A stretch of DNA of 64,000 nt. Source: Promethearchaeota archaeon (GTDB lineage Archaea > Asgardarchaeota > Lokiarchaeia > Sigyniarchaeales > SOKP01). Below the pieces are notes generated by a model that saw only the letters and a list, made by a program, of their open reading frames with translations, searched no databases and was not told the DNA's origin. A program made the position numbers and the translations under genes. The stretch lies in NCBI GenBank assembly GCA_019058365.1, contig JAHPZE010000019.1, forward strand, positions 14,744 to 78,743, given 5' to 3'. This document shows positions 27,036 through 41,880 of this stretch, one piece after another (the first letter of the stretch is position 1; every line of letters starts with the position of its first letter).

Positions 27036-27056
27036 TATCATGATTGGTGAAGTTTA

Positions 27057-28631
27057 ATAAATAAAATCAACAGAGCTATTCTCTGTATAATAGACAATCT
27101 AAGATCAGACCATTTATTTGATTTTATAGGTAAAGGTTTACTCCCTAATATTGAAAAATTAATGAATAATGGTATTTTTTCCAAAAATTGTATTACAGAT
27201 TTTCCAGCAGTGACTTATCCAACTCAAGCATCGATGATTACTGGAACATATACGGGTGATTATAAAAAAGAATTTTGTCATGGGGTTCCTTTGATGGATT
27301 GGTTGGATCGTGATAAAATACCTCCAAGTCTAAGGAGTTATGCTGCCAAAGATATGCAAATTTATAAGATAAATGAAGATCTAGGAAATAATTGCAGAAC
27401 TATCCTCGAGATGGTAGGAGAAGGAAACACTACGAGTATTACCCAGTTTATTAACAGAGGTACTAAATATTTCTACCCTGAAAGAAGAACTAAACTTGCT
27501 TTATTTTATCTTCTTTTATATTATTCCCAAAATACAAAAAAGACAATGGTCAGAGTAAATTCATTAGTAGTTCAAAAATTACTAGAGACTTTTAAGAATC
27601 CAAAGAAATTTTTTAATAATAAAGAACCACCAATAGCATCTTTACTCTGGTTTGTGTCTTCTGACATATTGTTACATTTATTTGGATCTGATTCCTGGAT
27701 TTATAAATTAAATTTATTACATATAGATAAAGTAATAGGATTGTTAATTAACGAATTAGATAAATTGGGTTATTTAAGCGATACTGTAATTGCAATTACT
27801 TCAGATCATGGAAATTATAAAGCAGATAGGTTAGGAAATTTGCAGTCATTTCTTAATCGAAATAAATTGATACAATACCATCCTCGGAAAAAAAAAAGGG
27901 GGAATTTTGATCTAGCTAAGTATGACGGTGTAGGGTTCTTTTATTTTAAAGGAACAAATAATTCAGATAAGAAATATCAATGGTCGCCCCCCACTCTGAT
28001 GGATCTTGAATCATATGGTCCAAATAAAATAAATTTATTAAACCAATTATTCAAGATTGACGCTAGTCAATTGATGTTTTATCGAGGTGATAATAATACC
28101 TCTAAAGAAGGAATTATTTATCTAAAGAAAAGATGTAAAGAGAATAATCAAATATTAACATCTATCATTGAATATCAAGGAACTGGCTTTGATTATAAAA
28201 CAAGATATATACCAAATGATGAAGAAAATGATATGTTTAATTACTTTAATGATACAACAGCCTGTCAACTCTTAGATAATAAATTCCATACAACTCAAGA
28301 ATGGTTAATGGCAACTTATCATCTTGATTATCCTATGCTACCAGACTTAATACCACGCCATTTTAAAAATCCCCGAAGTGCAGATATCATTCTTAGCAAT
28401 GATGGGAGTATAGTGTATAACATACATCATGGAAAACAGACAGGAAAGAATATTTCTAATCATGATTTAGGCTTAAAAAGATGTATGAATGTTCCTTTAA
28501 TAATAGGAGGATCCTTAGAAATTCCAAGTAAAGAATTAACTTATTGTAAAATAACTGATATTGTTCCAACATTATTGAAGTTATTAGGAAAAAATCCACA
28601 TAAGAGTGTGGTAGGATCTAGTCTTGTATAA
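27057..28631 (+). CDS. Alkaline phosphatase superfamily (type I phosphodiesterase/nucleotide pyrophosphatase-like)
   Basis: FPAVTYP nucleophile, D.LLH, ITSDHG, SNH and TDIVPT. The conserved first strand AILCIIDNLRSDHL lies upstream of ATG 27162, so the start is extended to ATA 27057 behind GGTGA. Confidence 0.85.
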   Translation: MNKINRAILCIIDNLRSDHLFDFIGKGLLPNIEKLMNNGIFSKNCITDFPAVTYPTQASMITGTYTGDYKKEFCHGVPLMDWLDRDKIPPSLRSYAAKDMQIYKINEDLGNNCRTILEMVGEGNTTSITQFINRGTKYFYPERRTKLALFYLLLYYSQNTKKTMVRVNSLVVQKLLETFKNPKKFFNNKEPPIASLLWFVSSDILLHLFGSDSWIYKLNLLHIDKVIGLLINELDKLGYLSDTVIAITSDHGNYKADRLGNLQSFLNRNKLIQYHPRKKKRGNFDLAKYDGVGFFYFKGTNNSDKKYQWSPPTLMDLESYGPNKINLLNQLFKIDASQLMFYRGDNNTSKEGIIYLKKRCKENNQILTSIIEYQGTGFDYKTRYIPNDEENDMFNYFNDTTACQLLDNKFHTTQEWLMATYHLDYPMLPDLIPRHFKNPRSADIILSNDGSIVYNIHHGKQTGKNISNHDLGLKRCMNVPLIIGGSLEIPSKELTYCKITDIVPTLLKLLGKNPHKSVVGSSLV

Positions 28632-28665
28632 AATCTATTTCTTGGTATTTTGCTTAAAAATAGAG

Positions 28666-28693
28666 TCTATATATAATATATATGATATATAGA
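28666..28693. promoter_or_regulatory. Near-perfect 28-bp palindrome TCTATATAT-N10-ATATATAGA (candidate phosphate-regulon operator)
   Basis: Same CTATATA core as the motifs around pstCA, pstS and the PhoU regulator; lies upstream of the ABC operon. Confidence 0.5.
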
Positions 28694-28799
28694 GGTTTTA
28701 TTTATGATTTGTTAAATAAATAAAATAAATAGAACACTATATAATATCATTATATTAGAATTTATATTTGAAAAGTAGACAACTGTGTAATCTTGGCTT

Positions 28800-28898
28800 A
28801 TGAAAAGGCAAATTTGGATATTTATCGCATTAATAATTGGGATTTCATGTGGTATAATTTTTGCTATAATAGATAATTTTATACGATCATTCATTTAA
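28800..28898 (+). CDS. 32-aa single-TM microprotein heading the ABC operon
   Basis: MKRQIWIFIALIIGISCGIIFAIIDNFIRSFI*; ends 12 bp before the SBP ATG on the same strand. Confidence 0.55.
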   Translation: MKRQIWIFIALIIGISCGIIFAIIDNFIRSFI

Positions 28899-28910
28899 GG
28901 CTAAAAAAAT

Positions 28911-30035
28911 ATGAGCCGACAACGTAAAGCAAGAAAGCGAAGTAAAACAATTTTCGTGTTTATTTTTATTTGTGGATTTCTTTTAGGTTTTTCTACAACG
29001 AATTTTGTAATTACAAGTAGGGAGCAAAAAACACATATTACGATTATTTATAGTTCTGAAAAGGCAAGTTGGATGACAGTTGCTTATTCAGATTTTATGG
29101 ATGAGTGGCAAATTTCCCATCCGGATGACCCAATAACGATTGACATGCAACCCTATGGCTCTTCAAACTCAATAATTAGTATTCTCAATGGTGAGATTTA
29201 TCCTACTATCTGGAGTCCTGCAAGCTCAATTTGGATGCCATTATTAAACTCTAAATGGGCAGATCTGTCTCATAGTTCCATTCCTATAGTAAATATTAGC
29301 GCTGCAGTTAAAATTATATATTCACCGATAGTAATTGCTACGTGGGAATCTTTTAATCAAACTCACAATATAAAGGGATTCAAAGATGTGCATAATCTGA
29401 CTTTAGATCCAACTGTAAACATTAGAATGGCTCATACTGATCCCCGTTTATCAAATTCAGGTTTTATGACTGTGATAATGGCATTATCTGCTGCTTCTGG
29501 TACTTCTTCAGAGAATTTAACAATGTCTGATCTTACAAATCCCAACAATCAACAATGGTTAAGAGAATTTGAGTCTAGTGCTGTAGTGTATGGAACATCT
29601 ACAGGTTTCTTAGCACGTTATATGAAAGATCAGGGCCCTACTGCTTTGAATATAGCTTTCTTATATGAAAATTTAATAAGAGATATTTCAAGCACAGCTA
29701 CAGGAGGAAAAATCATTGCTATTTATCCAGAGGAAGGTACCTTATATAGTGACCATCCATTTTGTATATTAAATGCTGATTGGATTAGTCCTCAGCAAAG
29801 AATAGTAGCTGAAGCATTCCTTAATTTTCTAAATGAAAATCGAACCGTTATTTCTGCCTTGGAGTATGGATTTAGACCCATTGATCCTTCAATTCCATTA
29901 GATCCTGAAGTATTTAACTATGAGACTAATGGAATTGCCTATGAGCTTAATGTTCCTGAAATGAATACACCATTAGATGGAGATGTATTATTAAAAATCC
30001 CCGATTTATGGTTATTGTGTAAAGCAACAGCATAA
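28911..30035 (+). CDS. ABC transporter substrate-binding protein (type II PBP, family often fused to vWA domains)
   Basis: Basic N-terminus plus TM anchor; IYSSEK..WM, WSPASSIW, HTDP..SNSG, YEN, YPEEGT..SDHPF and GFRP motifs. Confidence 0.85.
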   Translation: MSRQRKARKRSKTIFVFIFICGFLLGFSTTNFVITSREQKTHITIIYSSEKASWMTVAYSDFMDEWQISHPDDPITIDMQPYGSSNSIISILNGEIYPTIWSPASSIWMPLLNSKWADLSHSSIPIVNISAAVKIIYSPIVIATWESFNQTHNIKGFKDVHNLTLDPTVNIRMAHTDPRLSNSGFMTVIMALSAASGTSSENLTMSDLTNPNNQQWLREFESSAVVYGTSTGFLARYMKDQGPTALNIAFLYENLIRDISSTATGGKIIAIYPEEGTLYSDHPFCILNADWISPQQRIVAEAFLNFLNENRTVISALEYGFRPIDPSIPLDPEVFNYETNGIAYELNVPEMNTPLDGDVLLKIPDLWLLCKATA

Positions 30036-30053
30036 GAGAAAATAATAATTAAA

Positions 30054-31730
30054 ATGTTAAAAAAAAATAATAAAGAAAATCAAAGTTTTAAAGAAGAGTA
30101 TCTGGAAGAGGAATTGAAATTACCTCTTAGTCTAAAAATAGACAGATTCTTTTCTAAATCAATATATAGAAAAAGCTTAGATACTATTGTAATTATATTC
30201 TTTATTTTGGTTATTATAGGTCCAATAATTAACATCTTTGCTACAATTCTTTTAAATATTCCTGCAATAAATAAAGATGTTTTTAATGATGAATTATTAG
30301 GTAATTTACAGTGGCTTAACATACTGAGAGCTTTGGGATATTCCTTCTCAATTGCATCTATAGCTGTTGGGTTTGATATTATTATTGCCTTCCCTATTTC
30401 CATAATTTTAACTCGTTATAATTTTAGAGGGAAAAAAATTCTTGATGCTATGGTAGATTTGCCAATGGCAGTTCCTACAAGTGCATTAGGGTTTTCCATA
30501 ATGTTGTTTTGGGGAATATTTGGAATCGAACCTGGATTTACACTGATTTTACTTGGACATATTGTCTTTACCTTTCCATATATTGTACGGAACATGAAGA
30601 TAGTATTAGAAAAAACTGCTACACTTTATGAAGATGCAGCCCGAACCCTTGGTGCTCCAGGGATTACAGTATTTCGAACTATCACAGTTCCGTTGATGAA
30701 GGAAGGATTAATAGCCGGTGCTGTTCTTGCATTTACAAGAAGTTTAGGTGAAACTGGTGCTACAATTATTCTTTCAGGTTTAGTAGAAACTGCGCCAATT
30801 CTTATTGTTGGTTTTAGAAGGCAATTAGAGCTACCATCTGCTTCATTATTAGCAGGAATATTAATAACTGTATCTATTTTGCTATTATTTTCAATAAAAT
30901 TCTTAACGCGTAAAGTAGGAATCCCTGTTAAATCTGTATGGCCAAAAATTGAAAGATTTTTAAGTAAAAAGAATTTAAGATATTTAAGGGATGTTTTAAC
31001 TTTAACAATTCTTTTCGTTGTGATTCTTATCCCTGCTTTTTATATTTTGGTAGAAATTGTTGGAGAGAATATCATAGGGGAAGTATTTTTAGGCCAAGAC
31101 TATAAATGGGTATTTATATATACAAGTTTTATTTATTCAATAGAAATTGGAGCTTTAGCTGTATTTATAAATCTCATTTTTGGAATACCTTTTGCCTTTA
31201 TAATTACAAACCGAAATTGGGGGAAGTTTATTACATTTTTAGATACTATTTTAGACATCCCCATTGCAATTCCTTCAGCAGCTTTAGGATTTGCAACATT
31301 CATGTTTTGGGGGCCAGTTGGTTTAGGATTATTTCAATCTGGGTTTTTTATGATCCTGTTTGTACATGTTGCTTTTACATTTCCATATATGGTTCGACCT
31401 ATTATCGGAGTTTTGGAATCTTCAAATAAAGGTGTCGAGGAAGCTGCTCGTACTTTAGGTGCTTCAAATATGACTGTATTTAGAAAAATTACTCTTCCTA
31501 ATATAAAACAAGGAATGATTGCGGGAGGTATCATGACATTCACACGTTCACTTGGAGAAACAGGTGCAACTATTGTTGTAATGGGAGGTATACGGACTGT
31601 TCCAGTACTAATTGTGGATTTCGTTGAGGCAAATGCTTATGCATCAGGAATCTTTGCTAGTGTTATTGTTATAATTTTTAGTACATTCCTAATTTTTGCT
31701 TTAAGAGCGGTAAGCAAAAAGGGAGGATAA
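30054..31730 (+). CDS. ABC importer permease, two fused CysT/ModB/FbpB-like domains
   Basis: Duplicated DLPMAVPTSALG/DIPIAIPSAALG, two EAA motifs (EDAARTLGA, EEAARTLGA) and two FTRSLGETGAT. Confidence 0.93.
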   Translation: MLKKNNKENQSFKEEYLEEELKLPLSLKIDRFFSKSIYRKSLDTIVIIFFILVIIGPIINIFATILLNIPAINKDVFNDELLGNLQWLNILRALGYSFSIASIAVGFDIIIAFPISIILTRYNFRGKKILDAMVDLPMAVPTSALGFSIMLFWGIFGIEPGFTLILLGHIVFTFPYIVRNMKIVLEKTATLYEDAARTLGAPGITVFRTITVPLMKEGLIAGAVLAFTRSLGETGATIILSGLVETAPILIVGFRRQLELPSASLLAGILITVSILLLFSIKFLTRKVGIPVKSVWPKIERFLSKKNLRYLRDVLTLTILFVVILIPAFYILVEIVGENIIGEVFLGQDYKWVFIYTSFIYSIEIGALAVFINLIFGIPFAFIITNRNWGKFITFLDTILDIPIAIPSAALGFATFMFWGPVGLGLFQSGFFMILFVHVAFTFPYMVRPIIGVLESSNKGVEEAARTLGASNMTVFRKITLPNIKQGMIAGGIMTFTRSLGETGATIVVMGGIRTVPVLIVDFVEANAYASGIFASVIVIIFSTFLIFALRAVSKKGG

Positions 31731-31734
31731 TCTC

Positions 31735-32880
31735 GTGCCCACTATAGAATTAGTGAAAGTTACAAAAACATTTAATGAAGGAAAAGTTCTTGCTGTGGAT
31801 AATATTTCTGTAAGAATTGAGCACGGGGAATATGTTTTTTTAATAGGGCCTACTGGTTGTGGAAAAACTACAACACTTAGAATGATTGCGGGACTTGAAG
31901 AACCAACTAAAGGAAAAGTTTTAATAGATGAAAAAGACGTTAAAGGCATCCCTCCTGAAGATAGAGATATGGGTTTTATTTTTCAGCATTTCGAAATTTT
32001 TGATCATTTAACAATATGGGAAAATGTAACTTTCGGTTTAGAAATGCGAGGCTATGATGATGATTATATCATTAAAGAAGCTGAGAAAGCTCTCAAGACT
32101 GTTGATTTATTACAGTATGCTGATGAGTATCCATCAATTTTTGGAAATCCCGGGCTGCAAAAATTAGGTATAGCTAGAGCTATTGCAACTGGAGCTAAAA
32201 TTTTAATTATGGATGAGCCATTAGGATCTCTAGATCCTAAAGTATCTAAAGTTTTCCGTCATGAATTGAGAAATTTAGTAAAAGATTTGGGTCTTACCGC
32301 TATACATGTCACTCACAATCAAGAAGAATCAATGGCTATAGCCGATAAAATAATTATTATGAGAGGAGGAAAACTTCTTCAAATGGGATCTCCTTATGAA
32401 TTATATGAAAATCCTGATAGTATTTTTGTTGCAAATTTTTTAGGAGAAACAAATTTTCTTCAAGGTTTTGTACTAAAGTTGCTTGAAGATAAAGAAATGG
32501 AAATACGTATTCGTTTAGGTGGTCCTAAATTAAATACTAATAATTTTAATAATAAATTTAATTTAGATGATAATGTAGTAATCGCTTTTCGCTTCGAAAA
32601 TGTATATTTATTTCCAGAAGGTTATGATTTTAAAACTAGTCAATATGATTGGTCAAATATGCAATTCTTTAAAGCAATTTTAGAAAATTCAAGATTTATT
32701 GGAGCAACAAAAAGATTTTACTTATATTTAGATAATGGTGATAAATTTATATCAGTAAAGCCAGGTAATTTTGAGGAAAGCTTTATACCCGGACAAAGAT
32801 TAATAATTGGAATTCACAAAGATGATATCCATGTATTTAAAGCCCCAGAAAACATTCTATATGAACTCTCTTTATCATAG
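31735..32880 (+). CDS. ABC ATPase 1 (degenerate signature motif)
   Basis: Walker A GPTGCGKT, Q-loop Q, Walker B ILIMDE and H-loop VTH intact; LSGGQ replaced by FGNPG; C-terminal TOBE-like region. Confidence 0.93.
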   Translation: MPTIELVKVTKTFNEGKVLAVDNISVRIEHGEYVFLIGPTGCGKTTTLRMIAGLEEPTKGKVLIDEKDVKGIPPEDRDMGFIFQHFEIFDHLTIWENVTFGLEMRGYDDDYIIKEAEKALKTVDLLQYADEYPSIFGNPGLQKLGIARAIATGAKILIMDEPLGSLDPKVSKVFRHELRNLVKDLGLTAIHVTHNQEESMAIADKIIIMRGGKLLQMGSPYELYENPDSIFVANFLGETNFLQGFVLKLLEDKEMEIRIRLGGPKLNTNNFNNKFNLDDNVVIAFRFENVYLFPEGYDFKTSQYDWSNMQFFKAILENSRFIGATKRFYLYLDNGDKFISVKPGNFEESFIPGQRLIIGIHKDDIHVFKAPENILYELSLS

Positions 32881-32891
32881 GTGAAAAACTA

Positions 32892-34115
32892 GTGGTACAT
32901 ATTGAATTGAAAAATGTCTCAAAAAAATTTAGAAATTTCACAGCATTAGATAATATTTCAGTAGAGATTAAAGATAGGGAATACTTTATTATTTTAGGTC
33001 CTACTGGAGCCGGTAAAACTACTTTCCTTAAACTTATCGCGGGACTTCTTAAACCTGATTCTGGAATGATATTTTTTGATGGTAAGGACGTAACCAAAAA
33101 ATCTGCTGGTGAAAGAAACATTGGTTTTATGTTTGAAAACTATGCTTTATTTCCTCATATGAATATTGTCGAAAATATTTCTTACAGTGGTCGGGTTCAT
33201 GCAAGAGATCCTCAAGCCACTCAAACTCTAGTTGATCAAGTCTTAATGATGACTCTATTAACAGGGAGAAATGATGCATATCCAAATGAGTTAAGTGGTG
33301 GAATGAGACAAAGAGTTGCCTTATGTCGATCCTTGCTAAATCTAGAGCAGACAAAATTATTGATTTTAGATGAACCTTTAAAAGCGCTTGATGCTGGACT
33401 TAGAATGAGTTTAAGTAGAGAATTACTCCTAATGGCAAAATCTAAAGAATTAGGCTTGACAGTTGTTCATGTTACCAATGATGAAGAAGAAGCAATGATG
33501 GCTGCTGATAGAATAGCAGTAATTAATCAAGGTAAACTTGTTCAGATTGGGACACCCCATGAAATTTATTATCAACCTAAAGATCTTTTTGTTGCAAACT
33601 TTTTAAGCGAAATCAACTATTTTGAAGGAATTTGTACTAAAAAAGAAATACCAGCATGGGATATTTACAGTAAATCAAAACAAGGAGATAAATTCTTCAA
33701 GAAGATTCAAGAAGATTCGGTTCCAATGCCAATAAATATTGGCTTTAAAAATGTTTTTGCTGGTTATTTAAATGAATCACAATATAATGAAATTCAGCAT
33801 GGAGATAAAGTATTATTAATTGTTCGAGCCAACCACATGAAAATTCGGCTTGGTAATCGTGTTAATGAAAAGAAAAATGCAATCTTAGGAATTATACTCC
33901 GTCGTAAATTTATGGGAGTATTCTACCGATTCGAAATCCTTGTAAAAATAAACCATAAAGATAAAGTTATTGTCGTCACCAGATCAGCCACTTATGAAAT
34001 TCATAAATCATTTTTAGAGAATTCTGAAGTAACATTATATTTTCCAAAAGAGTTAGGGATAATAATCAAGCATCCTGGTGATAATGTAATAAAAGAAGTA
34101 TTAAAATTAGAATAA
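32892..34115 (+). CDS. ABC ATPase 2 (degenerate Q- and H-loops)
   Basis: Walker A GPTGAGKT, signature LSGGM and Walker B LILDE intact; Q-loop FMFE and H-loop VTN altered. Confidence 0.93.
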   Translation: MVHIELKNVSKKFRNFTALDNISVEIKDREYFIILGPTGAGKTTFLKLIAGLLKPDSGMIFFDGKDVTKKSAGERNIGFMFENYALFPHMNIVENISYSGRVHARDPQATQTLVDQVLMMTLLTGRNDAYPNELSGGMRQRVALCRSLLNLEQTKLLILDEPLKALDAGLRMSLSRELLLMAKSKELGLTVVHVTNDEEEAMMAADRIAVINQGKLVQIGTPHEIYYQPKDLFVANFLSEINYFEGICTKKEIPAWDIYSKSKQGDKFFKKIQEDSVPMPINIGFKNVFAGYLNESQYNEIQHGDKVLLIVRANHMKIRLGNRVNEKKNAILGIILRRKFMGVFYRFEILVKINHKDKVIVVTRSATYEIHKSFLENSEVTLYFPKELGIIIKHPGDNVIKEVLKLE

Positions 34116-34169
34116 AAATAATAAATAATATTGAAATAAAGAAGAATATAAAAATAAAAGGGATATTTT

Positions 34170-34856
34170 ATGAGTTCTTTAATGGAATGGTTTAAATCTC
34201 GGAATGAAGAAAATGCAATGAATTTAGCTTTAGTTCATACTCAGAAAGTTCTTGAATGTATTGTTGAATTTGATAAAGGTCTATCTTTTCTTCTTGAGGA
34301 AAAAAATATTGATCTTGCGTTAAAAGTTTTTTTCCGAGTTGATGAATTAGAACACCAAGCTGATGGAATCCGCAGAAATATTTTAAATATGATATCTCAA
34401 GCTGAACTTCCATCTAAAATCCGTGAGAATTTAATGCATCTTGTTAAAAGAATTGATGACATTGCGAATGCAGCCAATGCGAGTGCTAGGATTCTCATCT
34501 CCATGAATCATATGGATTTTATGAGCTTGGGGGATGATGTTCATAAAAATATCTTGGAGATTTCAAGAATTTCAGTAGAAGCTGTTAAAAAAGTAAATAA
34601 AATGGTAGACCTATTATTAAAAGCAGAGGAAGTAAATATCCAGAGGTTAGGAGAAGAAGTGAATAAGTTAGAACATCAATGTGATGAAAAGCATTACGCA
34701 ATAAGTAGAAGTTTAGTATCAAGCAATCTACAAATTAATCCATTTAGCGCAATTGTAATTTACAATTGTATCTCTGCCATGGAAGCAATTAGTGATAATG
34801 CAGAGGATGTAGCTGATTATATAATAATGCTTACATTAGCAAAAAGACTAAAATAA
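34170..34856 (+). CDS. DUF47/PhoU-like phosphate transport regulator
   Basis: LEHQADGIRR, IDDIAN, LEHQCDE and EAISDNAEDVAD duplicated ExxxD motifs. Confidence 0.9.
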   Translation: MSSLMEWFKSRNEENAMNLALVHTQKVLECIVEFDKGLSFLLEEKNIDLALKVFFRVDELEHQADGIRRNILNMISQAELPSKIRENLMHLVKRIDDIANAANASARILISMNHMDFMSLGDDVHKNILEISRISVEAVKKVNKMVDLLLKAEEVNIQRLGEEVNKLEHQCDEKHYAISRSLVSSNLQINPFSAIVIYNCISAMEAISDNAEDVADYIIMLTLAKRLK

Positions 34857-34901: not shown

Positions 34902-35519
34902 TTAAAGATTTAGTACTTTTTTTTGCTTTTCAGTATTTTGTTTTAAAAGAATTATTGATTTTTCTCTCGCTTTTAACATTGATCTTTCCTTAACTCCTTT
35001 CATTTCATTAGAGGGTAGAATTTCTTCCTTTAACACTCTTTTAAAAAGTAAATATTCATCTTTTCTAGAGATAAATGGATCAACCCTCTCATCATGAATA
35101 AATTCCTCAATTGAAGTATTTTTTCCATTACAATTCCCTTCAGTAAGATCGAAACGATAATCTTTATACACTAAAAAACAATGTGCCATTGGTACATAGG
35201 GAAGTTTATACTTATTTAATATTTCATTTGTGCCTGTTGAGATTACCTCAGTGAGTTTATAAACACCGACATGCTTAAAAAGAGGTATTTCTAATTCTTC
35301 AGCAAGACCTGCTATAACTGCATGTTTAGATGTGCAAGTGCCTTTTTTTTCTTTAAAAAAAATTAATTTGTCATCATAATTTGTATTGTATCCATATTCA
35401 ATACCATGCACGTAATTACAAGCATCCTTGAAATTTTTAATTCTAAGTTCCAAGAATTTTTTTGATATTTCTCCTACAGGTTTAATTTCAGCATCCGGCA
35501 AGTTGTTATATGAATCCAT
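34902..35519 (-). CDS. Hypothetical protein, transglutaminase-like Cys-His-Asp fold
   Basis: GTCTSKH...AHCFL...FDLT putative triad. Confidence 0.65.
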   Translation of the reverse strand: MDSYNNLPDAEIKPVGEISKKFLELRIKNFKDACNYVHGIEYGYNTNYDDKLIFFKEKKGTCTSKHAVIAGLAEELEIPLFKHVGVYKLTEVISTGTNEILNKYKLPYVPMAHCFLVYKDYRFDLTEGNCNGKNTSIEEFIHDERVDPFISRKDEYLLFKRVLKEEILPSNEMKGVKERSMLKAREKSIILLKQNTEKQKKVLNL

Positions 35520-35668: not shown

Positions 35669-36322
35669 TTAGGTAATCTCTTTATGCTCACCGGTTACCA
35701 TATAATGAACTTTCTCAGCGATTTTACATGCATTATCCCCACATCTTTCCAAATATCTTGAAATCATAATGAAGAAAGCACATGGTGTAATTGTTTTAGC
35801 ATCCTCCATCATATAAGTTATACATTCTCTAAATATCGACCATCTCATTTCATCAATCTCATCGTCTCTTTGTTCAAAATTTGCATAATATTTACTATCC
35901 GATTCTTCAAAAGCTTTCAAAGCATCGACAATCATAGATTTTGTATGTTCCCACATATGCTGTATATTAACAAATGGTGCAGGATAAGGTTTCTTTCTTG
36001 ATAACTCTTCTACCACTGAAGCAATATCTTTTCCATATCTCCCTATTCTAGCAAGATAAGTAATCATTTTTAAAATTGTAGCTAATCTTCTTAGATCTAT
36101 TGCCATTGGTTGGTATAATGCAATTAATCTCAAAGCTTTTGCTTCTATATCTGCATCCAATTCTCTTATCTTATGTTTCTTGTTCACTGTAACTTTAGCT
36201 AATTCGATATCCTGAGTTGCTAAAGCTTTCATTGCATCGTCTAACATTCCTAAGACTAAATTACCCATATCGCCAATTTCTTTCTTTAATGCAAAAATTT
36301 CTTTACGCATTTCTTTTGCCAT
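35669..36322 (-). CDS. phoU: Phosphate signalling protein PhoU
   Basis: QPMAIDLR, L.RIG, DDEID and YLERCGD; directly downstream of pstB. Confidence 0.95.
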   Translation of the reverse strand: MAKEMRKEIFALKKEIGDMGNLVLGMLDDAMKALATQDIELAKVTVNKKHKIRELDADIEAKALRLIALYQPMAIDLRRLATILKMITYLARIGRYGKDIASVVEELSRKKPYPAPFVNIQHMWEHTKSMIVDALKAFEESDSKYYANFEQRDDEIDEMRWSIFRECITYMMEDAKTITPCAFFIMISRYLERCGDNACKIAEKVHYMVTGEHKEIT

Positions 36323-36333
36323 TAAAAATCCAC

Positions 36334-37167
36334 CTAACCAAATCTTCCTGTTATATAATTTTCTGTTAATTCTTGCTTAGGATTTTCAAAAATTTGGGTA
36401 GTTTCACCAAATTCGATCATTTTTCCTAAATACATAAGACCCGTATAATCACTTATTCTTGCTGCTTGTTGCATATTATGGGTAACAATTATCACTGTCC
36501 ATTCTCTCTTCAATTCAAGTATTAATTCTTCAATTTTTTGTGTTGCTATTGGATCAAGAGACGCTGTTGGTTCATCCATTAAAAGTATTTCAGGTTTAAC
36601 TGCTAAAGCTCTCGCTATACATAGTCTTTGTTGTTGCCCTCCGGATAATCCCAACGCAGATTCATCTAGTCTCTCATAGACCTCATCCCATAATACTGCT
36701 CTCTTAAGACATCTCTCTGTAATTTCATCTAAGATTTTATCTCCAATAATTTTATGAATTTTTGGACCATATGTAATATTGTCATATATAGTCATCGGAA
36801 AAGGATTAGGTTTCTGAAAGATCATTCCAATCTTTTTTCTATTCAATCTTACATCAGCACCTTTAGCATAGAGGTTCTTGCCTTGAAATAGAACTTCACC
36901 TTCAATTCTACATCCATCTATTACATCATTCATTCGATTTAAACATCGTAATAATGTACTTTTACCACATCCAGATGGTCCAATAATAGCAGTTACTTCG
37001 TTTTTTTTAAATTTCATATTGATATCTATCAATGCCTGTGTCTCATCATACCAAAGATTCAAATTTTTACATTCAATTATTATTTCATTTTGATTTTTAC
37101 TTACATCATTCATGCTATTCTCTTTTTCGATTTTTGTTTTATTTCTATTATTAATTTTTAAAACCAA
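36334..37167 (-). CDS. pstB: Phosphate ABC transporter ATPase
   Basis: [51 protein letters not shown] and YITGRFG. Confidence 0.98.
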
Positions 37168-37173
37168 GGTATA

Positions 37174-39282
37174 TCACCATTGTTTTCTTTTTTCATATTT
37201 TGTTCTTACAATAAATGCTATGCCATAAAATATTAATACCAACAATAGTAAGGTTAGAGCTGTCCCAGCAGCTTCTTCTACTGAGAATAATGCTTCAGTT
37301 AATAATCTATAAAGATGATATGTAAGAGCCATTACAGGCTCAAAAACTGATAAAACAAGCCAGAACCTAGAAGAAGTTCTGACAGCAGTAAACATGATAG
37401 GAGCTGTTTCTCCTGCGCTTCGTCCCATTCCTAAAACTGCCCCCGTAACAATTCCAGGTAATGCTGCAGGGATTACAATTTTACTGATTCCTTGCCATTT
37501 ACTTGAACCTAAAGCCAGGCTACCTTCTCTAAACGCCTGAGGAATTGCTTTTACTGCTTCTTCAGTAGTTCTTATTATTGTAGGAAGTATCATTAAACCT
37601 AAAGTTAACATTCCAGCTAATAATGATTTCATAAGTCCAAATAGCACCAGAAAGAGCACAACTCCAAATAGGGCAAATACAATTGATGGTGTACCATTTA
37701 AATTATCAATTCCAGAACGTATAATTTTAGTGATTTTATTGTCTTTAGCATATTCAGAAAGATAAATCCCTGCACACATACCAAGAGGCAGGGCAAAGGC
37801 AATAGAGCCTAATGTGAGTTGAATAGTTCCAGTAATTGCAGGAAGTATTCCTCCTTCCATTGAAGTACCTGTAAGAAAATTGGGTCTAAATATGACAGGA
37901 AGTCCTTTTGATATAATATAATATAGTAATATTCCCACAGTAATCACTGCAACTGAAGAACATAGATAAATAATTATAAACCAAAATTTTTCTTGACCTA
38001 CAGAAGAAATTTTTCTGAAAGTGAGCATAACTACTATAATTGACGCACATACTAAGATAGCTAAGGATATTCCAATCCAAGTACTAAGCACCCATCCCAC
38101 AAACAACAAAATAACGCCATATACTATCCATTTTTTATATTTTTGAGGAACTTTTTTATGAAAATAAATAGCTAAGCTTAATCCTAAACAGATTATTACT
38201 CCAATCACTTTAGAAGCTAAATCAGGTAATATGAAAGCAATTAGTCCAGAAATAAGTATAGGTAATATTAAATTTTTATATTTTTTAATAAAGTTGAATA
38301 ATTTGGATTCTCTAAGTTTTGAGTGTTTTTCTTTTTGTTTTTCTCCTGTAAATCTTCTTCGAATTCGAGATAATATGACATTTGCGCCTGTATTAACAAC
38401 CAGAGTCATTATAAATAGCGTTATTCCTAAAGCAAAATAACTCCTCCATTCTATACTATTTGTTTCAGTTGGTCCCAATCCTAATCCTATCGTTGAAGTT
38501 ATTACTGCTACACAAGAGAACATATTTGTTATTGGTTCGGGAAGAATTTTACAATTTCCAATAACTAACATCATCGCCATAGTTTCACCTAATGCTCGAC
38601 CAATACCTAAAATCATAGCAGCAGTAATGCCAGACATGCCTGCGGGAATCACTACCTTACGTATAGTTTGCCATTTTGTTGCTCCCATAGCATAAGATGC
38701 ATCTCTATAGTAATCTGGAACAGCTCTAATTGAATCTTCACATACTGATACAATTGTAGGTAAAGCCATTATTGCTAAAATTAAAGAGCCCGATAACCAT
38801 GTGTTTCCATGATGTAAACCGAAAATATCTCTTATCCATATATTTAATACAACAAGTCCAAAGAAGCCATACACAATAGAGGGAATACCTGCAAGTATTT
38901 CTATACTAAATTTGAGAATCTTCCTAAGTTTTGATGGTGCAAGTTCAGCTATAAAAATAGCAGTCATTAATCCTAATGGTAGTGCAATGATTATTGCTCC
39001 GAATGTAACTAAAAGTGTATCAACAATAATTGGTAAAGCCCCGAAATCTCCATTTGTAGGCAACCAGTTTGTACCAAAAAGAAATTCAGTAAGAGTGACT
39101 TTAGCAAAGAAAGGAGCTCCAGTTATAAATAGAAATATTATTATTAAAAATACAAAAATAGTAGCAATAGAAGCAATGAAAAACAGAATCCATTTAATAA
39201 TAGGATCTCTATTTTTTTTTAAATAAGAGTAATCTTCATTATAGATATACAGCTTATTTTCAAAATCAATTTCTGTCGACAT
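37174..39282 (-). CDS. pstCA: Fused phosphate ABC permease PstC-PstA
   Basis: N-half LAGIPSIVYGFFG...GRALGETMA (PstC); C-half LNGTPSIVFALFG...GRSAGETAP (PstA); single uninterrupted ORF. Confidence 0.93.
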   Translation of the reverse strand: MSTEIDFENKLYIYNEDYSYLKKNRDPIIKWILFFIASIATIFVFLIIIFLFITGAPFFAKVTLTEFLFGTNWLPTNGDFGALPIIVDTLLVTFGAIIIALPLGLMTAIFIAELAPSKLRKILKFSIEILAGIPSIVYGFFGLVVLNIWIRDIFGLHHGNTWLSGSLILAIMALPTIVSVCEDSIRAVPDYYRDASYAMGATKWQTIRKVVIPAGMSGITAAMILGIGRALGETMAMMLVIGNCKILPEPITNMFSCVAVITSTIGLGLGPTETNSIEWRSYFALGITLFIMTLVVNTGANVILSRIRRRFTGEKQKEKHSKLRESKLFNFIKKYKNLILPILISGLIAFILPDLASKVIGVIICLGLSLAIYFHKKVPQKYKKWIVYGVILLFVGWVLSTWIGISLAILVCASIIVVMLTFRKISSVGQEKFWFIIIYLCSSVAVITVGILLYYIISKGLPVIFRPNFLTGTSMEGGILPAITGTIQLTLGSIAFALPLGMCAGIYLSEYAKDNKITKIIRSGIDNLNGTPSIVFALFGVVLFLVLFGLMKSLLAGMLTLGLMILPTIIRTTEEAVKAIPQAFREGSLALGSSKWQGISKIVIPAALPGIVTGAVLGMGRSAGETAPIMFTAVRTSSRFWLVLSVFEPVMALTYHLYRLLTEALFSVEEAAGTALTLLLLVLIFYGIAFIVRTKYEKRKQW

Positions 39283-39378
39283 AGATCTATGAAGGAATCA
39301 CATGTAAAACCCTATTTTTATACAAGAGAAAATTGGATTTTATATATTTATAACCATCATAGAATATATTCGAATATT

Positions 39379-39399
39379 TATTCTATATAAAATATATAG
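39379..39399. promoter_or_regulatory. Candidate phosphate-regulon operator upstream of pstCA
   Basis: TATTCTATATA 11-mer within the inverted repeat CTATATA-AAA-TATATAG. Confidence 0.5.
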
Positions 39400-39538
39400 C
39401 ATTTTGAGTGTTCTAAAAATAATTTTTAGATGTGTGTATTCCTAAAATCAATTAGAGTATTATTTAAAATTAAGAAATATTTCAAAAAAAATAGTAAAAA
39501 AAAGAAATAATTAAGAATTTTTTGTTTAAATTAAAATT

Positions 39539-40438
39539 TTAAAACCAAAGTCTGATAAAACCTTCTGCTGCCACGGTATTTTGTCCTTCTGTACCATAAA
39601 TAAAGTCAATGAAAGCTCTAACCCATCCAGTCGGTTCACCGTTTGTTGTAAGATGTAAAGATCTTGAAATTGGATAAGAGTCATCTAACACAGTAGATAC
39701 TGAAGGTGTTACCCCGTTTATAGGAACTGCAATTACAGTAGTATCAACATAACCTAATCCACAGTATCCTAAACCATATTGATTTGCACTCACAGTAGTT
39801 ACCATGACTGTATTAGAGGCAACTTCTATATATCCTGTTACTGAACTAGTATACCCAGAATTTTCACCAAGCTTTTCAGAACCCTCATATAAAACTAATT
39901 CTTCAAATGTGGCTCTTGTACCTGACCCATCAGGTCTTGTATGAACATCAATAGATTGAGATGATAAAGTATTATTAATATCATCCCAAGTATCATAAGT
40001 ACCATTGTAAATTAAGAATACTTGATCCATTGTCAGTCCATTTGATTGTAACCATACTGCATCAGGATTATCAGCGTCAATAATCACTGATATTCCATCT
40101 TTCGCAAACTTAAAATCGGTTAAATTATTTCCCGTTGTAAGGTTTTCAGATGCTTTAATATTACGTGATGACATACCAATATCATTTTGTCCGTCAATTG
40201 TATCAGAAATTCCATCTCCAGATCCCGTACCTGAAACAGAAATGTCAACATTAGGATTTATTAACATGAATTGATTAGCAGCTTCAGTAATTATAGGCTC
40301 ACAAGTAGTAGATCCCGTAATAATGATACTTGTTGTTCCAGCACCACCTGGAGCTATTATAGAGGTAGTTCCCCAGCCGACGAAAAACATGGCGATCATA
40401 CCAACAACAGCAATTAACCACATACCTTTTTTTTCCAT
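39539..40438 (-). CDS. pstS: Phosphate ABC transporter substrate-binding protein
   Basis: GSTT, GTGSGDG, IGMSSR, RPDGSGTRATF and YPISR; N-terminal TM anchor. Confidence 0.96.
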   Translation of the reverse strand: MEKKGMWLIAVVGMIAMFFVGWGTTSIIAPGGAGTTSIIITGSTTCEPIITEAANQFMLINPNVDISVSGTGSGDGISDTIDGQNDIGMSSRNIKASENLTTGNNLTDFKFAKDGISVIIDADNPDAVWLQSNGLTMDQVFLIYNGTYDTWDDINNTLSSQSIDVHTRPDGSGTRATFEELVLYEGSEKLGENSGYTSSVTGYIEVASNTVMVTTVSANQYGLGYCGLGYVDTTVIAVPINGVTPSVSTVLDDSYPISRSLHLTTNGEPTGWVRAFIDFIYGTEGQNTVAAEGFIRLWF

Positions 40439-40552: not shown

Positions 40553-40835
40553 CTATATATTCTATAGAGATAGACTTTATTTATCATCAAAATCTCGACA
40601 TAAAGATTTATTATAAAGCTAATAATCTCAACAATGTCGAATAATAATATCAAGCTATATAGACGATATTGATACTACTTTACTTTTTTGTAAATACTTA
40701 TAAGTAACTATTGTTAAACATATATATAGAATATAGAAAGTATATATAGTATATAGACTAAGTATAAAATCATTCTATTATTTATTCTATATAATTAAAT
40801 GTGTTATTAATGATACTTTTTATTCTATATATAGA
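40553..40835. promoter_or_regulatory. Cluster of CTATATA-core sites in the divergent pstS / PhoU-regulator promoter
   Basis: TATTCTATATA at 40783 and 40821, reverse copy at 40723; 17-bp direct repeat 40721/40741 (16/17); palindrome TCTATATATAGA at 40824-40835. Confidence 0.55.
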
Positions 40836-40875: not shown

Positions 40876-41880
40876 ATGGGATTTAATATAGAAACAAGAA
40901 AGGTTCAGAAGACAGGGGGCAGTTCTTATATTGTATCTTTACCAAAAGTTTGGATAGATAAACACGGCGTTAAAAAAAATGATACTTTAGGTATACTTTC
41001 CCAACCAGATGGTAATTTACTCATAACTCCTAAAATTGATAATGAAATAACTATTAAAACGAAAGAGATAATGGTCGATGACTATAAGGATGAAAATTTT
41101 CTGTTTAGAGTTTTAATTGGAGCATATATAATGGGATTTTCAAAAATAATCATAAAATCTGGCAGGAAATTTGATCCTTTAATAAGAGATACCATTACAG
41201 ATTTTACACAAATTGCAATTGGTCCTGAAATTGTAGAAGAATCTAATAATGTTATAGTGATAAAAGATCTGCTTAATCCTAAAGAAATGCCTTTTGAAAA
41301 AACAATAAAAAGAATGTATATTTTAGTTCAAGGTATGCATGAAGATTCCATAAATGCTTTTGAAACAAGAGATGAGGAATTAGCTGAAGAAGTCATTAAA
41401 AGAGATAATGATGTTGACAGATTGCACTGGCTAATTGGTCGTCAATCTCATATTGTATTGAGGGATATTATTCTTTGTCAGAAAATGGGGATAACGTTAG
41501 AACAAGCAAGTCATTACCAGCAAATGAGTCGCTTTTTAGAACGTATAGGAGACCATGCCAGTAAAATTGCTAGAAATGTTTTAATTCTTATACAAAAAGA
41601 ATTAGATAAAAATCTAAAGGAAGAGATTAAAACAGTAAGTAAATTATCACTGGATTTATTGAATAAAAGTCTTGATGCATGGCTTCAAAAAAGCTTAGTT
41701 CTTGCGAATGAAAACATTGAAGATATTAAAGAATTGATAGCGGCTACAGAAAAAATAAGCCTTAATACCATTAGCAGTGCTGAAGTTTCAATAGCAATAG
41801 GATATATAATTGAGAGTATTAGACGTACGGCTGAGTATAGCGGGGATATTTCTGAAATTATAATAAATAATTTAGTCTAA
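40876..41880 (+). CDS. Archaeal phosphate uptake regulator (AbrB-like DNA-binding domain + PhoU domains)
   Basis: ETRKVQKTGGSSYIVSLPKVW AbrB motif; RDNDVDRL, LERIGDHA and ESIRRTAEYS. Confidence 0.94.
   Translation: MGFNIETRKVQKTGGSSYIVSLPKVWIDKHGVKKNDTLGILSQPDGNLLITPKIDNEITIKTKEIMVDDYKDENFLFRVLIGAYIMGFSKIIIKSGRKFDPLIRDTITDFTQIAIGPEIVEESNNVIVIKDLLNPKEMPFEKTIKRMYILVQGMHEDSINAFETRDEELAEEVIKRDNDVDRLHWLIGRQSHIVLRDIILCQKMGITLEQASHYQQMSRFLERIGDHASKIARNVLILIQKELDKNLKEEIKTVSKLSLDLLNKSLDAWLQKSLVLANENIEDIKELIAATEKISLNTISSAEVSIAIGYIIESIRRTAEYSGDISEIIINNLV

What the first reader, a model, noticed from the sequence alone, without database searches (positions are those of the whole stretch)
27057..34856. 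Candidate uncharacterised phosphorus-scavenging system: phosphodiesterase + microprotein + atypical SBP + fused permease + 2 ATPases + DUF47
Seen: seven co-oriented genes converge on the pst cluster. The SBP resembles the family usually found fused to vWA domains rather than ModA/Sbp/FbpA, yet the permease is CysT/ModB-like. The run ends in DUF47, which normally accompanies PiT phosphate transporters, and no PiT gene is present in the window. An operator-like CTATATA palindrome precedes the ABC genes. Inference: a second uptake route for phosphate or organophosphate (phosphodiester products, pyrophosphate, phosphite), likely to be mis-annotated as sulfate, iron or molybdate transport.
Basis: partly seen in the sequence, partly recalled or inferred. 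Interest (0 to 1): 0.7.

Follow-up and report, generated by a model that had tools for sequence, protein, structure and literature searches.

The report
Second phosphate-regulon ABC importer in Asgard
Beside its ordinary phosphate pump, this Asgard archaeon carries a conserved, undescribed ABC importer built from sulfate/molybdate-type parts, and its PhoU-like partner, its neighbours and its promoter boxes all tie it to phosphate starvation; the substrate is still unproven.

Summary
Seven co-oriented genes (27057-34856) converge on phoU-pstB-pstCA-pstS: an NPP-type phosphodiesterase, a 32-aa membrane peptide, an SBP, a fused permease, two ATPases and DUF47.

The core (SBP, permease, ATPases, DUF47) recurs in 36 of 151 Asgard genomes sampled. 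DUF47 is adjacent in 31 of 38 loci I could evaluate.

- **Phosphate link.** Neighbours recur: PiT-DUF47, AbrB-PhoU regulators (in two separate families) and pst. (C)TATATAG boxes mark the operon's promoter. Genome-wide, the only three intergenic clusters of this box lie at pstS/AbrB-PhoU, at this operon and at a phosphoesterase-NUDIX pair.
- **Ancestry.** The parts are not Pst-like. The SBP is closest to sulfate-binding protein, and the permease is CysT/ModB-like.
- **Rivals.** Tungstate/molybdate and sulfate are disfavoured by which genomes carry the system. AOR-rich relatives lack it, nine genomes also hold a canonical ModA-type SBP, and 13 of 36 lack ATP sulfurylase.
- **Gap filling.** In family f8 (5 of 5 genomes) and f26 (its one genome) it is the only recognisable phosphate route.
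- **Extra features.** One ATP site is degenerate in every two-ATPase locus examined, and the membrane peptide is conserved in 16 loci.

Best reading: a Pho-regulon importer of phosphate or a related phosphorus anion. No ligand has been shown. The scan found the same module earlier in other genomes, with a follow-up (e1-2309578) reaching a like conclusion.

The parts
27057..28631 (+). NPP/alkaline-phosphatase-superfamily phosphodiesterase with no signal peptide. It probably starts at a non-AUG codon (ATA 27057); the first ATG is at 27162.
   Evidence: PF01663, 65 bits. The catalytic strand ILCIIDNLRSD lies upstream of the ATG. A stop codon followed by I/L..NKI.R is conserved in L026 and L003, whereas L035 has an ATG at the equivalent place. 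The gene is linked to the operon only in family f1.
28667..28743 (.). Promoter region with three (C)TATATA(G) boxes, including the palindrome CTATATA-N12-TATATAG; a candidate Pho-type operator.
   Evidence: Arrays with a 10-bp period stand at the same place in L026, L027, L028, L030 and L033. This is one of only three intergenic box clusters in the 4.74-Mb genome.
28800..28898 (+). 32-aa single-TM microprotein (MKRQIWIFIALIIGISCGIIFAIIDNFIRSFI); a likely small subunit of the transporter.
   Evidence: A homologous peptide ending in ..ID(N/Y)(F/Y)IRSFI lies 4-50 nt upstream of the SBP in 16 loci, including relatives whose SBP is only 43-49% identical. Gene callers also placed a small ORF there.
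28911..30035 (+). Membrane-anchored substrate-binding protein, a cluster-D SBP fold of the Sbp-like, vWA-associated family.
   Evidence: PF13531, 51 bits. AF2 model pLDDT 92. Sbp structures rank first: Z 28.2, rmsd 3.5 A over 300 residues; profile E 2e-5 to 1sbp. Invariant motifs are SSEK, GS, SPAS, HTDPxxSNSG, STG, YEN, DHP and GFRP.
30054..31730 (+). Fused two-domain type-I ABC permease, CysT/CysW/ModB-like.
   Evidence: Two BPD_transp_1 domains. TIGR00969 232 bits, TIGR02141 204, CysT 191, WtpB 186; PstC only 65 and PstA 57.
31735..32880 (+). NBD1: catalytic motifs intact, signature motif degenerate (FGNPGLQ); C-terminal TOBE-like domain.
32892..34115 (+). NBD2: canonical LSGGM signature, but Q-loop Q->E and H-loop H->N. 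With NBD1's signature this forms one degenerate ATP site.
   Evidence: The same pattern holds in all two-ATPase loci examined.
34170..34856 (+). DUF47 (PhoU_div), a PhoU-fold protein that keeps three ExxxD motifs; a putative regulator or partner of the NBDs.
   Evidence: PF01865 86 bits, PF01895 30 bits. Invariant E61/D65, E168/D172 and E205/D209. Adjacent to the operon in 31 of 38 evaluable loci. Predicted complex with NBD1+NBD2: weak support, 0.51 against a best control of 0.01.
34902..35519 (-). Conserved 205-aa neighbour of unknown function.
   Evidence: No Pfam or NCBIfam hit. Orthologues lie near the module in L003, L026 and L035.
35669..40438 (-). Canonical phoU-pstB-pstCA(fused)-pstS operon, with box sites at 39383-39399.
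   Evidence: TIGR02135, TIGR00972, TIGR02138 and TIGR00974 all score above their cut-offs. PstS: PF12849, 123 bits. Boxes.
40553..40834 (.). Nine (C)TATATA(G) sites in the divergent pstS / AbrB-PhoU intergenic region.
   Evidence: This is the largest box cluster in the genome.
40876..41880 (+). AbrB(MazE)-PhoU fusion protein, a putative phosphate regulator.
   Evidence: PF04014 and PF01895. Orthologues lie next to the module in L003, L026 and L035 (family f1) and in L054 and L056 (family f15).

Best explanation
This is a phosphate-starvation (Pho-type) regulon ABC importer. It evolved from the sulfate/molybdate (SulT/MolT) branch of type-I importers, not from Pst.

Proposed mechanism:
1. A membrane-anchored, Sbp-like binding protein captures a tetrahedral phosphorus oxyanion. 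Orthophosphate is the most likely ligand; phosphite, pyrophosphate or a small organophosphate are not excluded.
2. A fused two-domain permease, probably joined by a 32-aa TM peptide, translocates it.
3. A heterodimeric ATPase powers transport. One of its ATP sites is catalytic and the other is degenerate.
4. The PhoU-fold DUF47 protein plays the part that PhoU plays for PstB: it binds the ATPase pair and throttles or reports transport.
5. Transcription is controlled through (C)TATATAG box arrays shared with pst, most likely by the AbrB-PhoU regulator.

Shown here: gene content, conservation, linkage, motif asymmetry and box sharing. Inferred: the substrate, the role of DUF47 and the regulator-box pairing.
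For: **1. Conserved module.** SBP, fused permease, ATPase(s) and DUF47 recur in 36 of 151 sampled Asgard genomes across 11 families, and on metagenome contigs with 37-49% identical SBPs in different flanks. DUF47 is adjacent in 31 of 38 evaluable loci.

**2. Phosphate neighbours.**
- PiT-DUF47: L003, L026, L028, L030, L032.
- AbrB-PhoU regulator: L003, L026, L035 (family f1) and, independently, L054, L056 (family f15).
- pst: this window.
- No AOR gene was adjacent in any locus.

**3. Shared cis-element.**
- 14 of the 15 intergenic CTATATA sites in the window fall in three promoters: this operon, pstCA and pstS/AbrB-PhoU. Together these cover 972 of about 9,000 intergenic nt.
- Arrays with a 10-bp period are conserved upstream of the operon in five relatives, and stand at PiT-DUF47 and AbrB-PhoU in L026.
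- The 4.74-Mb genome has five clusters of three or more sites. The three intergenic ones lie at pstS/AbrB-PhoU, at this operon, and about 620 nt upstream of a Metallophos phosphoesterase followed by a NUDIX hydrolase.

**4. Phyletic pattern.**
- Of 16 genomes with neither PstC nor PiT, 8 carry this system: all 5 of family f8, the one f26 genome, and two others from f16 and f5 at 69% and 89% completeness.
- The four of these tested also lack Na/Pi cotransporters.
- The weak PstS-like hit in G006 is a LysR regulator.
- Families with near-universal Pst and no PiT found (f3, f17, f19, f20, f21) lack the system.

**5. Anion-type binding site.** The invariant SBP residues sit at strand ends and helix N-termini. 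The closest solved relative is the sulfate-binding protein.

**6. DUF47.** It keeps the ExxxD motifs of the PhoU fold. Predicted complex with both ATPases: weak support, score 0.51 against a best control of 0.01. Partner pLDDT was at least 79 and run-to-run contact agreement at least 0%. The mark was reached by 58 of 80 solved complexes and 2 of 110 mismatches, but a pass at or below 0.60 came from only 7 of those 80 and from both mismatches.
Against:
- Every transporter part scores far better against sulfate, molybdate and tungstate families than against Pst.
- The genome already has both Pst and PiT, so a third orthophosphate route looks redundant.
- Eight sampled genomes have none of Pst, PiT or this system, among them the closed genome G023. 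Other phosphorus routes must therefore exist, and the gap-filling argument is only suggestive.
- The genome's own PiT-DUF47 locus on C7 carries no boxes.
- Related genomes are not independent, so the Fisher tests overstate the case.
- The box array on C34 lies about 620 nt from the phosphoesterase start.
- The complex prediction is only weak support.
Confidence: 0.55

Rival explanations
1. It is a tungstate, molybdate or vanadate importer (a divergent Wtp/Mod/Vup-type system) that supplies the many tungstopterin enzymes of this archaeon.
For: - The genome has 16 AOR genes.
- Its only PF13531 hits are this SBP and a weak match to PstS, and its only real PBP_like_2 hit is PstS. So no ModA, WtpA or TupA was found.
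- The permease scores well on ModB (204 bits) and WtpB (186 bits).
- A published survey reads Asgard SulT homologues as tungstate/vanadate uptake (PMC7997004).
- One bacterial relative lies near an AOR gene (L061).
Against: - Five close relatives, 94-100% complete and with 8-15 AOR genes each, have no homologue of the SBP even in a profile search, and no ModA-type SBP either. Tungsten supply in this family therefore does not depend on this system.
- Nine Asgard genomes carry it together with a canonical, high-scoring PF13531 SBP.
- No AOR gene is adjacent in 41 loci; Moco genes were not among the queries.
- A PhoU-fold partner, the Pho-type neighbours and the boxes shared with pst have no explanation under this reading.
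- WtpB, WtpC and ModC all score far below their cut-offs, and ModA/WtpA structures were not among the top 50 fold matches.
Confidence: 0.13
2. It is a sulfate or thiosulfate importer, a divergent CysPTWA system.
For: - Sbp is the closest solved relative by sequence profile (1sbp, E 2e-5) and by fold (Z 28.2 and 27.4).
- The permease scores 232 bits on the sulfate permease subfamily, whose cut-off is 240.
- The genome has an ATP sulfurylase and no other Sbp-like SBP.
- Carriers have Sat somewhat more often: 23 of 36 against 51 of 115.
Against: - 13 of 36 carriers have no ATP sulfurylase, among them G083 (100% complete) and G006 (8 contigs, 95% complete).
- 51 Sat-positive genomes lack the system.
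- Sat is never adjacent.
- The family has invariant carboxylates and histidines near the anion motifs (E50, H175, E253; D177, D281 and H282 are near-invariant). From my memory of the Sbp structure, its site has no hydrogen-bond acceptors, which is what lets it reject protonated anions. That point was not tested here.
- The phosphate-type context goes unexplained.
Confidence: 0.1
3. It imports an organophosphate, such as a sugar phosphate, glycerophosphodiester or nucleotide, which cytoplasmic phosphoesterases then cleave. This would parallel AfuABC or UgpBAEC-UgpQ.
For: - The sugar-phosphate binders AfuA and VcA0625 are among the top fold matches (Z 24.6-25.1).
- AfuABC-type systems also use a fused permease (from memory).
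- A signal-less NPP-type phosphodiesterase is adjacent in four f1 loci, and a GDPD gene lies nearby in L005.
- The SBP has more invariant polar residues than a bare tetrahedral anion needs.
- The same box precedes a Metallophos-NUDIX pair.
Against: - The permease is much closer to CysT/ModB than to the PhnU2 or ThiP type of fused permease.
- The phosphodiesterase link is confined to one family and sits in a separate transcription unit.
- Fold matches at Z 24-25 are shared with polyamine and iron binders, so they do not discriminate.
Confidence: 0.15
4. It imports a metal or a metal-anion complex, such as Fe(III) with a synergistic anion or a metal chelate, like FbpABC or MctA.
For: - The architecture of SBP, fused permease and TOBE-type ATPase matches FbpABC.
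- FbpA, FutA and MctA appear among the fold matches at Z 22.6-23.6.
- The SBP has invariant His, Glu and Tyr residues and a near-invariant Asp.
- Bacterial relatives are fused to metal-binding vWA domains.
Against: - The permease and ATPases score best on oxyanion families. The ferric ATPase model scores 230-232 bits against a cut-off of 496.
- No iron-regulation context was seen.
- The phosphate-type context goes unexplained.
Confidence: 0.05

Closest known systems
PstSCAB-PhoU phosphate uptake system (PhoT family, TC 3.A.1.7)
   Same: - It is an SBP-dependent type-I ABC importer whose last gene encodes a PhoU-fold protein.
- It lies among pst, pit and phoU-type genes.
- Its promoter shares boxes with pst.
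- It is the only recognisable phosphate route in some genomes.
   Different: - No component is orthologous to Pst. The SBP has no PBP_like_2 match. PstC and PstA models score 65 and 57 bits against cut-offs of 196 and 193. PstB scores 124 against 343.
- The partner is DUF47, not PhoU proper.
- The permease is a single fused protein of CysTW/ModB type.
- The ATPases form a heterodimer with one degenerate site.
- There is an extra 32-aa TM peptide.
Sulfate/thiosulfate CysPTWA and tungstate WtpABC systems (SulT family, TC 3.A.1.6) and ModABC
   Same: These are the closest relatives of the SBP (Sbp: profile E 2e-5, Z 28) and of the permease and ATPases by sequence. The C-terminal ATPase domain is TOBE-like.
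   Different: - Scores fall below the curated cut-offs, except the two-domain summed ModB score.
- The SBP family is otherwise known only as vWA-linked bacterial proteins.
- There is no phyletic tie to sulfate assimilation or to tungsten enzymes.
- Those systems have neither a DUF47 partner nor a Pho context.
PiT phosphate permease with its DUF47 'Pit accessory protein'
   Same: The same PhoU_div family protein stands next to a phosphate-related transporter. In five relatives a PiT-DUF47 pair lies directly beside this operon.
   Different: Here DUF47 is coupled to an ABC importer rather than to a secondary carrier. I found no paper describing that pairing.
Bacterial SBP + SBP-vWA cassettes ('substrate-binding and VWA domain-containing protein')
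   Same: They share the SBP family and the invariant pocket motifs, so probably the same kind of ligand.
   Different: The bacterial genes sit in cassettes with no cognate permease or ATPase (L062, L063). The Asgard clade has lost or never had the vWA domain and is wired to a full transporter.

Membership tests
PstSCAB-PhoU (PhoT) | PstS-type binding protein (PF12849 / PBP_like_2) | tested here: not met
   The SBP matches only PF13531 (51 bits) and has no PBP_like_2 hit. The true PstS in the window scores 123 bits.
PstSCAB-PhoU (PhoT) | PstC/PstA permeases and PstB ATPase above the NCBIfam cut-offs | tested here: not met
   PstC 64.6 bits (cut-off 196.45), PstA 56.9 (193.45), PstB 124 (343.2).
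PstSCAB-PhoU (PhoT) | PhoU-fold protein encoded with the transporter | tested here: met
   DUF47 scores 86 bits on PF01865 and 30 bits on PF01895, and is adjacent in 31 of 38 loci. It is PhoU_div, not PhoU proper (no TIGR02135 hit).
PstSCAB-PhoU (PhoT) | Transports orthophosphate and is induced by phosphate limitation | not testable with these tools
   Only indirect evidence: boxes shared with pst promoters and the phyletic gap-filling pattern.
SulT (CysPTWA / WtpABC) | Permease and ATPase above the family cut-offs | tested here: not met
   TIGR00969 232.2 bits (cut-off 240, summed over two halves); CysT 190.9 (246.1); WtpB 185.6 (340); sulfate ATPase 234-238 (342.75); WtpC 210-240 (440).
SulT (CysPTWA / WtpABC) | Sbp/CysP- or WtpA-type binding protein | tested here: inconclusive
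   Sbp is the nearest solved relative (E 2e-5; Z 28.2, rmsd 3.5 A, 300 residues aligned), but identity is only 13-14%. The SBP has no NCBIfam hit.
SulT (CysPTWA / WtpABC) | Co-occurrence with sulfate assimilation or with tungsten/molybdenum enzymes | tested here: not met
   13 of 36 carriers lack ATP sulfurylase. Five AOR-rich relatives lack the system. Nine carriers also have a canonical PF13531 SBP.
ModABC | ModB permease equivalog and ModA binding protein | tested here: inconclusive
   TIGR02141 scores 204.2 bits, above its 182.6 cut-off, but only as the sum of two permease domains. No ModA model matches the SBP, and ModC scores 129 against 285.
FbpABC / AfuABC (fused-permease importers) | FbpA/AfuA-type SBP, fused permease, FbpC ATPase | tested here: inconclusive
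   The fused permease is present. FbpA and AfuA folds match at Z 22.6-25.1, no better than polyamine binders. The ferric ATPase model scores 230-232 bits against 496.
DUF47 / PhoU_div (PF01865) | Match above the Pfam gathering score, with the ExxxD motifs of the PhoU fold | tested here: met
   86.4 bits against a cut-off of 24.4. Invariant E61/D65, E168/D172 and E205/D209. TIGR00153 scores 69.6, below its cut-off of 104.3.

The most novel reading that the evidence does not exclude
Asgard archaea evolved a second phosphate ABC importer independently of Pst, from sulfate/molybdate-type parts. It has a permanently asymmetric ATPase pair, a 32-aa membrane subunit and a DUF47 gatekeeper that docks on the degenerate ATPase. 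In some lineages (f8, f26) it has replaced both Pst and PiT as the only phosphate entry route. The bacterial vWA-fused relatives of its binding protein would then be extracellular phosphate-binding proteins.
Probability: 0.3. Interest if true: 0.7.

Novelty: new variant of a known kind. Interest (0 to 1): 0.6.

Why it matters
- **Annotation.** Homology pipelines will label this operon as sulfate, molybdate, tungstate or iron transport. That would distort phosphorus, sulfur and trace-metal budgets inferred for Asgard archaea in sediments.
- **Convergent evolution.** If the substrate is a phosphorus anion, this would be non-orthologous replacement of Pst, with a PhoU-fold partner recruited a second time.
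- **DUF47.** The family would gain a testable role beyond 'Pit accessory protein'.
- **A handle on the vWA-linked SBPs.** That large bacterial family has no known ligand.
- **Transporter mechanics.** The conserved degenerate ATP site is a natural case of asymmetry in a type-I importer.
- **Regulation.** The TATATAG arrays give a concrete candidate Pho box for Asgard archaea.

Tried and rejected
- **Tungstate as the 'missing transporter'.** This looked attractive at first: 16 AOR genes and no ModA, WtpA or TupA. It was set aside because five near-complete relatives with 8-15 AORs lack the system altogether.
- **Sulfate.** Considered because the genome has ATP sulfurylase. Weakened by the cross-tabulation.
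- **PDB sequence search with the single SBP.** Nothing found. Only the profile reached Sbp.
- **Residue-level binding-site comparison.** Not possible. Model coordinates are not exposed, and the motif correspondence with Sbp that I describe rests partly on memory.
- **PF13531 over 151 genomes.** This search missed several weak (about 50-bit) matches that the protein search had found, the query genome's own among them. I used it only for strong ModA-type hits.
- **Box clusters on C23 and C47.** Both lie inside ORFs, are loosely spaced and look like chance.
- **Literature.** Searches for DUF47 with ABC transporters, Asgard phosphate transport, vWA-linked SBPs and Asgard tungstate uptake found no description of this module.
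- **Third 'PstS-like' hits.** Those in G000 and G006 are LysR regulators.

Full report
**What is in the window.**

Seven co-oriented genes occupy 27057-34856 on the + strand:
- An alkaline-phosphatase-superfamily phosphodiesterase (PF01663, 65 bits).
- A 32-aa single-TM ORF (28800-28898).
- A substrate-binding protein (28911-30035; PF13531, 51 bits; no NCBIfam hit).
- A fused two-domain permease (30054-31730).
- Two ABC ATPases (31735-32880 and 32892-34115).
- A DUF47/PhoU_div protein (34170-34856; PF01865, 86 bits).

On the - strand they face a 205-aa gene of unknown function and then a canonical phoU-pstB-pstCA-pstS operon. All four Pst components and PhoU score above their NCBIfam cut-offs. 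A divergent AbrB(MazE)-PhoU regulator follows at 40876-41880.

The permease's best models are sulfate permease (232 bits), ModB (204), CysT (191) and WtpB (186), while PstC and PstA score only 65 and 57. The genome's single PiT sits on another contig with its own DUF47.

**The binding protein.**

The SBP has an N-terminal membrane anchor. Its model is confident (pLDDT 92).

About 935 close homologues exist. Most of those that carry a name are from Promethearchaeota and other Asgard MAGs, and many are 66-87% identical.

In the 50%-identity representative library, the next relatives are stand-alone Asgard proteins at 36-49% identity. Beyond them lies a large set of 550-870-aa proteins at 30-35% identity that fuse this domain to a vWA domain.

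Even so, the nearest solved relative is the sulfate-binding protein, both by profile (1sbp, E 2e-5; 5um2; SubI) and by fold. Sbp of X. citri gives Z 28.2 (rmsd 3.5 A, 300 residues) and 1sbp gives Z 27.4. The thiamin binder TbpA gives 27.5, and most polyamine, sugar-phosphate and iron binders give 22.6-25.7.

The invariant residues form the motifs SSEK, GS, SPAS, HTDPxxSNSG, STG, YEN, DHP and GFRP. In the model they fall at strand ends and helix N-termini, which is the usual architecture of an oxyanion site.

**Conservation of the module.**

- A protein search of 151 Asgard genomes found the SBP in 36, spread over 11 of 27 families. The distribution is patchy: 10 of 25 in the window's own family and 1 of 4 other genomes in its genus.
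- I fetched 35 of these loci and six further loci on other contigs (MAG assemblies and metagenomes), then mapped the window's proteins onto them.
- The order SBP, fused permease, ATPase, ATPase recurs throughout. DUF47 is adjacent in 31 of 38 evaluable loci. It usually follows as the last gene, and in family f16 it sits on the opposite strand.
- More distant versions (L007, L009) have one ATPase plus DUF47.
- Family f8 has split permeases and no DUF47. Family f15 has an AbrB-PhoU regulator in place of DUF47.
- The 32-aa peptide is real. A homologue ending in ..ID(N/Y)(F/Y)IRSFI lies 4-50 nt upstream of the SBP in 16 loci, down to 43% SBP identity.

**Asymmetric ATPases.**

NBD1 keeps its Walker A, Q-loop, Walker B and H-loop, but its signature motif is FGNPGLQ. 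NBD2 has a canonical LSGGM signature, but its Q-loop has Q->E and its H-loop has H->N.

The pattern holds in all two-ATPase loci. NBD1's signature reads FGNPGLQ, LSAPELQ, LNTPELQ or LSAPDWQ. NBD2 has Q->E/A together with either H->N or a Walker-B E->D. All the degenerate motifs map to one composite ATP site. The single-ATPase versions are canonical.

**Evidence for a phosphate connection.**

*Neighbours.*
- PiT-DUF47 stands next to the module in L003, L026, L028, L030 and L032.
- AbrB-PhoU stands next to it in L003, L026 and L035, and independently in family f15 (L054, L056).
- The phosphodiesterase is adjacent in the window, L003, L026 and L035.
- pst is adjacent in the window only.
- No AOR gene was adjacent anywhere.

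*Cis-element.*
- The palindrome CTATATA-N12-TATATAG at 28667-28692 gave 1 match against 0.02 expected.
- Within about 9 kb of intergenic DNA in the window, 14 of 15 CTATATA sites lie in three regions: upstream of this operon, upstream of pstCA, and between pstS and AbrB-PhoU.
- In relatives, arrays such as CTATATAttaCTATATAGgaTATATAGagTATATAG, with a 10-bp period, lie upstream of the peptide gene. In L026 they also lie at PiT-DUF47 and AbrB-PhoU.
- The 4.74-Mb genome has only five clusters of three or more sites. Two are intragenic. The other three lie at pstS/AbrB-PhoU, at this operon, and upstream of a calcineurin-like phosphoesterase followed by a NUDIX hydrolase.
- The operon therefore appears to share an operator with unambiguous phosphate genes.

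*Phyletic pattern.*
- I cross-tabulated the module against PstC and PiT. Sixteen genomes have neither Pst nor PiT, and eight of those carry the module.
- These eight include all five genomes of family f8 and the one f26 genome.
- Four of them also lack Na/Pi cotransporters. The weak PstS-like hit in G006 is a LysR regulator.
- Families with near-universal Pst and no PiT found (f3, f17, f19, f20, f21) lack the module.

This third line is only suggestive. Related genomes are not independent, and eight genomes have none of the three systems, one of them closed.

**Rivals.**

*Tungstate or molybdate* looked strong at first, because the genome has 16 AOR genes and no ModA, WtpA or TupA. Three results count against it:
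- Five relatives that are 94-100% complete, with 8-15 AORs each, lack the SBP even in a profile search, and lack ModA-type SBPs too.
- Nine other genomes carry the module together with a canonical, high-scoring PF13531 SBP.
- Its presence therefore does not follow tungsten demand.

*Sulfate* is supported by homology and by an ATP sulfurylase in the genome. However, 13 of 36 carriers lack that enzyme and 51 Sat-positive genomes lack the module.

*Organophosphate* remains open. Sugar-phosphate binders are among the fold matches, and a signal-less phosphodiesterase is a neighbour within family f1. That link is family-specific, though, and the permease is of the oxyanion type.

*Metal uptake* is the least supported reading.

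**DUF47.**

DUF47 keeps three ExxxD motifs. These motifs are typical of the PhoU fold; that point is from established knowledge of the family and was not tested here.

A predicted complex of NBD1, NBD2 and DUF47 gave weak support:
- The score was 0.51 against a best control of 0.01. Replacing NBD2 with an unrelated protein gave that 0.01.
- Partner pLDDT was at least 79, and run-to-run contact agreement was at least 0%.
- The mark was reached by 58 of 80 solved complexes and 2 of 110 mismatches. Passes at or below 0.60 came from only 7 of those 80 and from both mismatches.

I treat this result as a hint only.

**Comparison with what is known.**

Functionally the module looks most like Pst-PhoU, but it fails every Pst membership test except having a PhoU-fold partner. 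By descent it belongs near SulT/MolT, yet it falls below those families' cut-offs and does not share their biology.

I found no paper describing an ABC importer coupled to DUF47 or this SBP family's ligand. One Asgard transporter survey reads SulT homologues as tungstate/vanadate uptake (PMC7997004).

The scan has met this module before in other genomes. One earlier follow-up (e1-2309578) reached a similar reading.
- the genome-wide box analysis;
- the three-way phyletic table;
- the tests against tungstate and sulfate;
- conservation of the peptide and of the ATPase asymmetry.

**Verdict.**

The finding is a real, conserved and apparently undescribed variant of an ABC importer. I put membership of the phosphate regulon at about 0.8, a phosphorus-containing substrate at about 0.6-0.65, and orthophosphate specifically at about 0.4. 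The substrate needs a binding assay.

Noticed in passing
window 27040-27164; L026 about 14840-14900 (- strand); L003 about 4170-4200: In three genomes the phosphodiesterase has no ATG, GTG or TTG upstream of its conserved catalytic first strand. A TGA stop inside 'W*' is followed at once by I/L-x-I-N-K-I-x-R. The orthologue in L035 starts with ATG at the equivalent place. This suggests a conserved non-AUG (ATA/ATT-type) start rather than a frameshift.
   Followed up: partly
whole genome G000 and relatives G008, G049, G150, G147, G071: These Lokiarchaeia-type genomes carry 8-16 aldehyde:ferredoxin oxidoreductase genes but no recognisable ModA, WtpA or TupA binding protein. How this family takes up tungstate is unexplained.
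   Followed up: partly
G000 C34:146927-146947 (L066 about 128-148), upstream of L066:771-1592 and 1622-2050: A tight array, CTATATAGaCTATATAGactCTATATA, lies just downstream of an AOR gene and about 620 nt upstream of a calcineurin-like phosphoesterase followed by a NUDIX hydrolase. These may be further members of the same regulon.
   Followed up: partly
window 34902-35519 (-): A 205-aa protein with no family match is a conserved neighbour of the module (L003, L026, L035). It lies between DUF47 and phoU.
   Followed up: no
L062 2278-9140; L063 2065-5811: Bacterial relatives of the SBP occur as cassettes made of a stand-alone SBP, an SBP-vWA fusion and an unknown 249-272-aa protein. No permease or ATPase is nearby, so this is an uncharacterised extracellular system.
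   Followed up: no
G132 (L026 5154-6191) against G000 C7:143758-144606: Most genomes of the family have two PiT genes. The copy beside the module carries the TATATAG boxes. In this genome the pst operon occupies that position, and the remaining PiT-DUF47 locus on C7 has no boxes.
   Followed up: partly
G023, G002, G029, G039, G090, G118, G119, G142: Eight sampled Asgard genomes, one of them closed and 97% complete, show no PstC, no PiT and no copy of this module. G023 also lacks a Na/Pi cotransporter. Another phosphorus uptake route must exist in the phylum.
   Followed up: no
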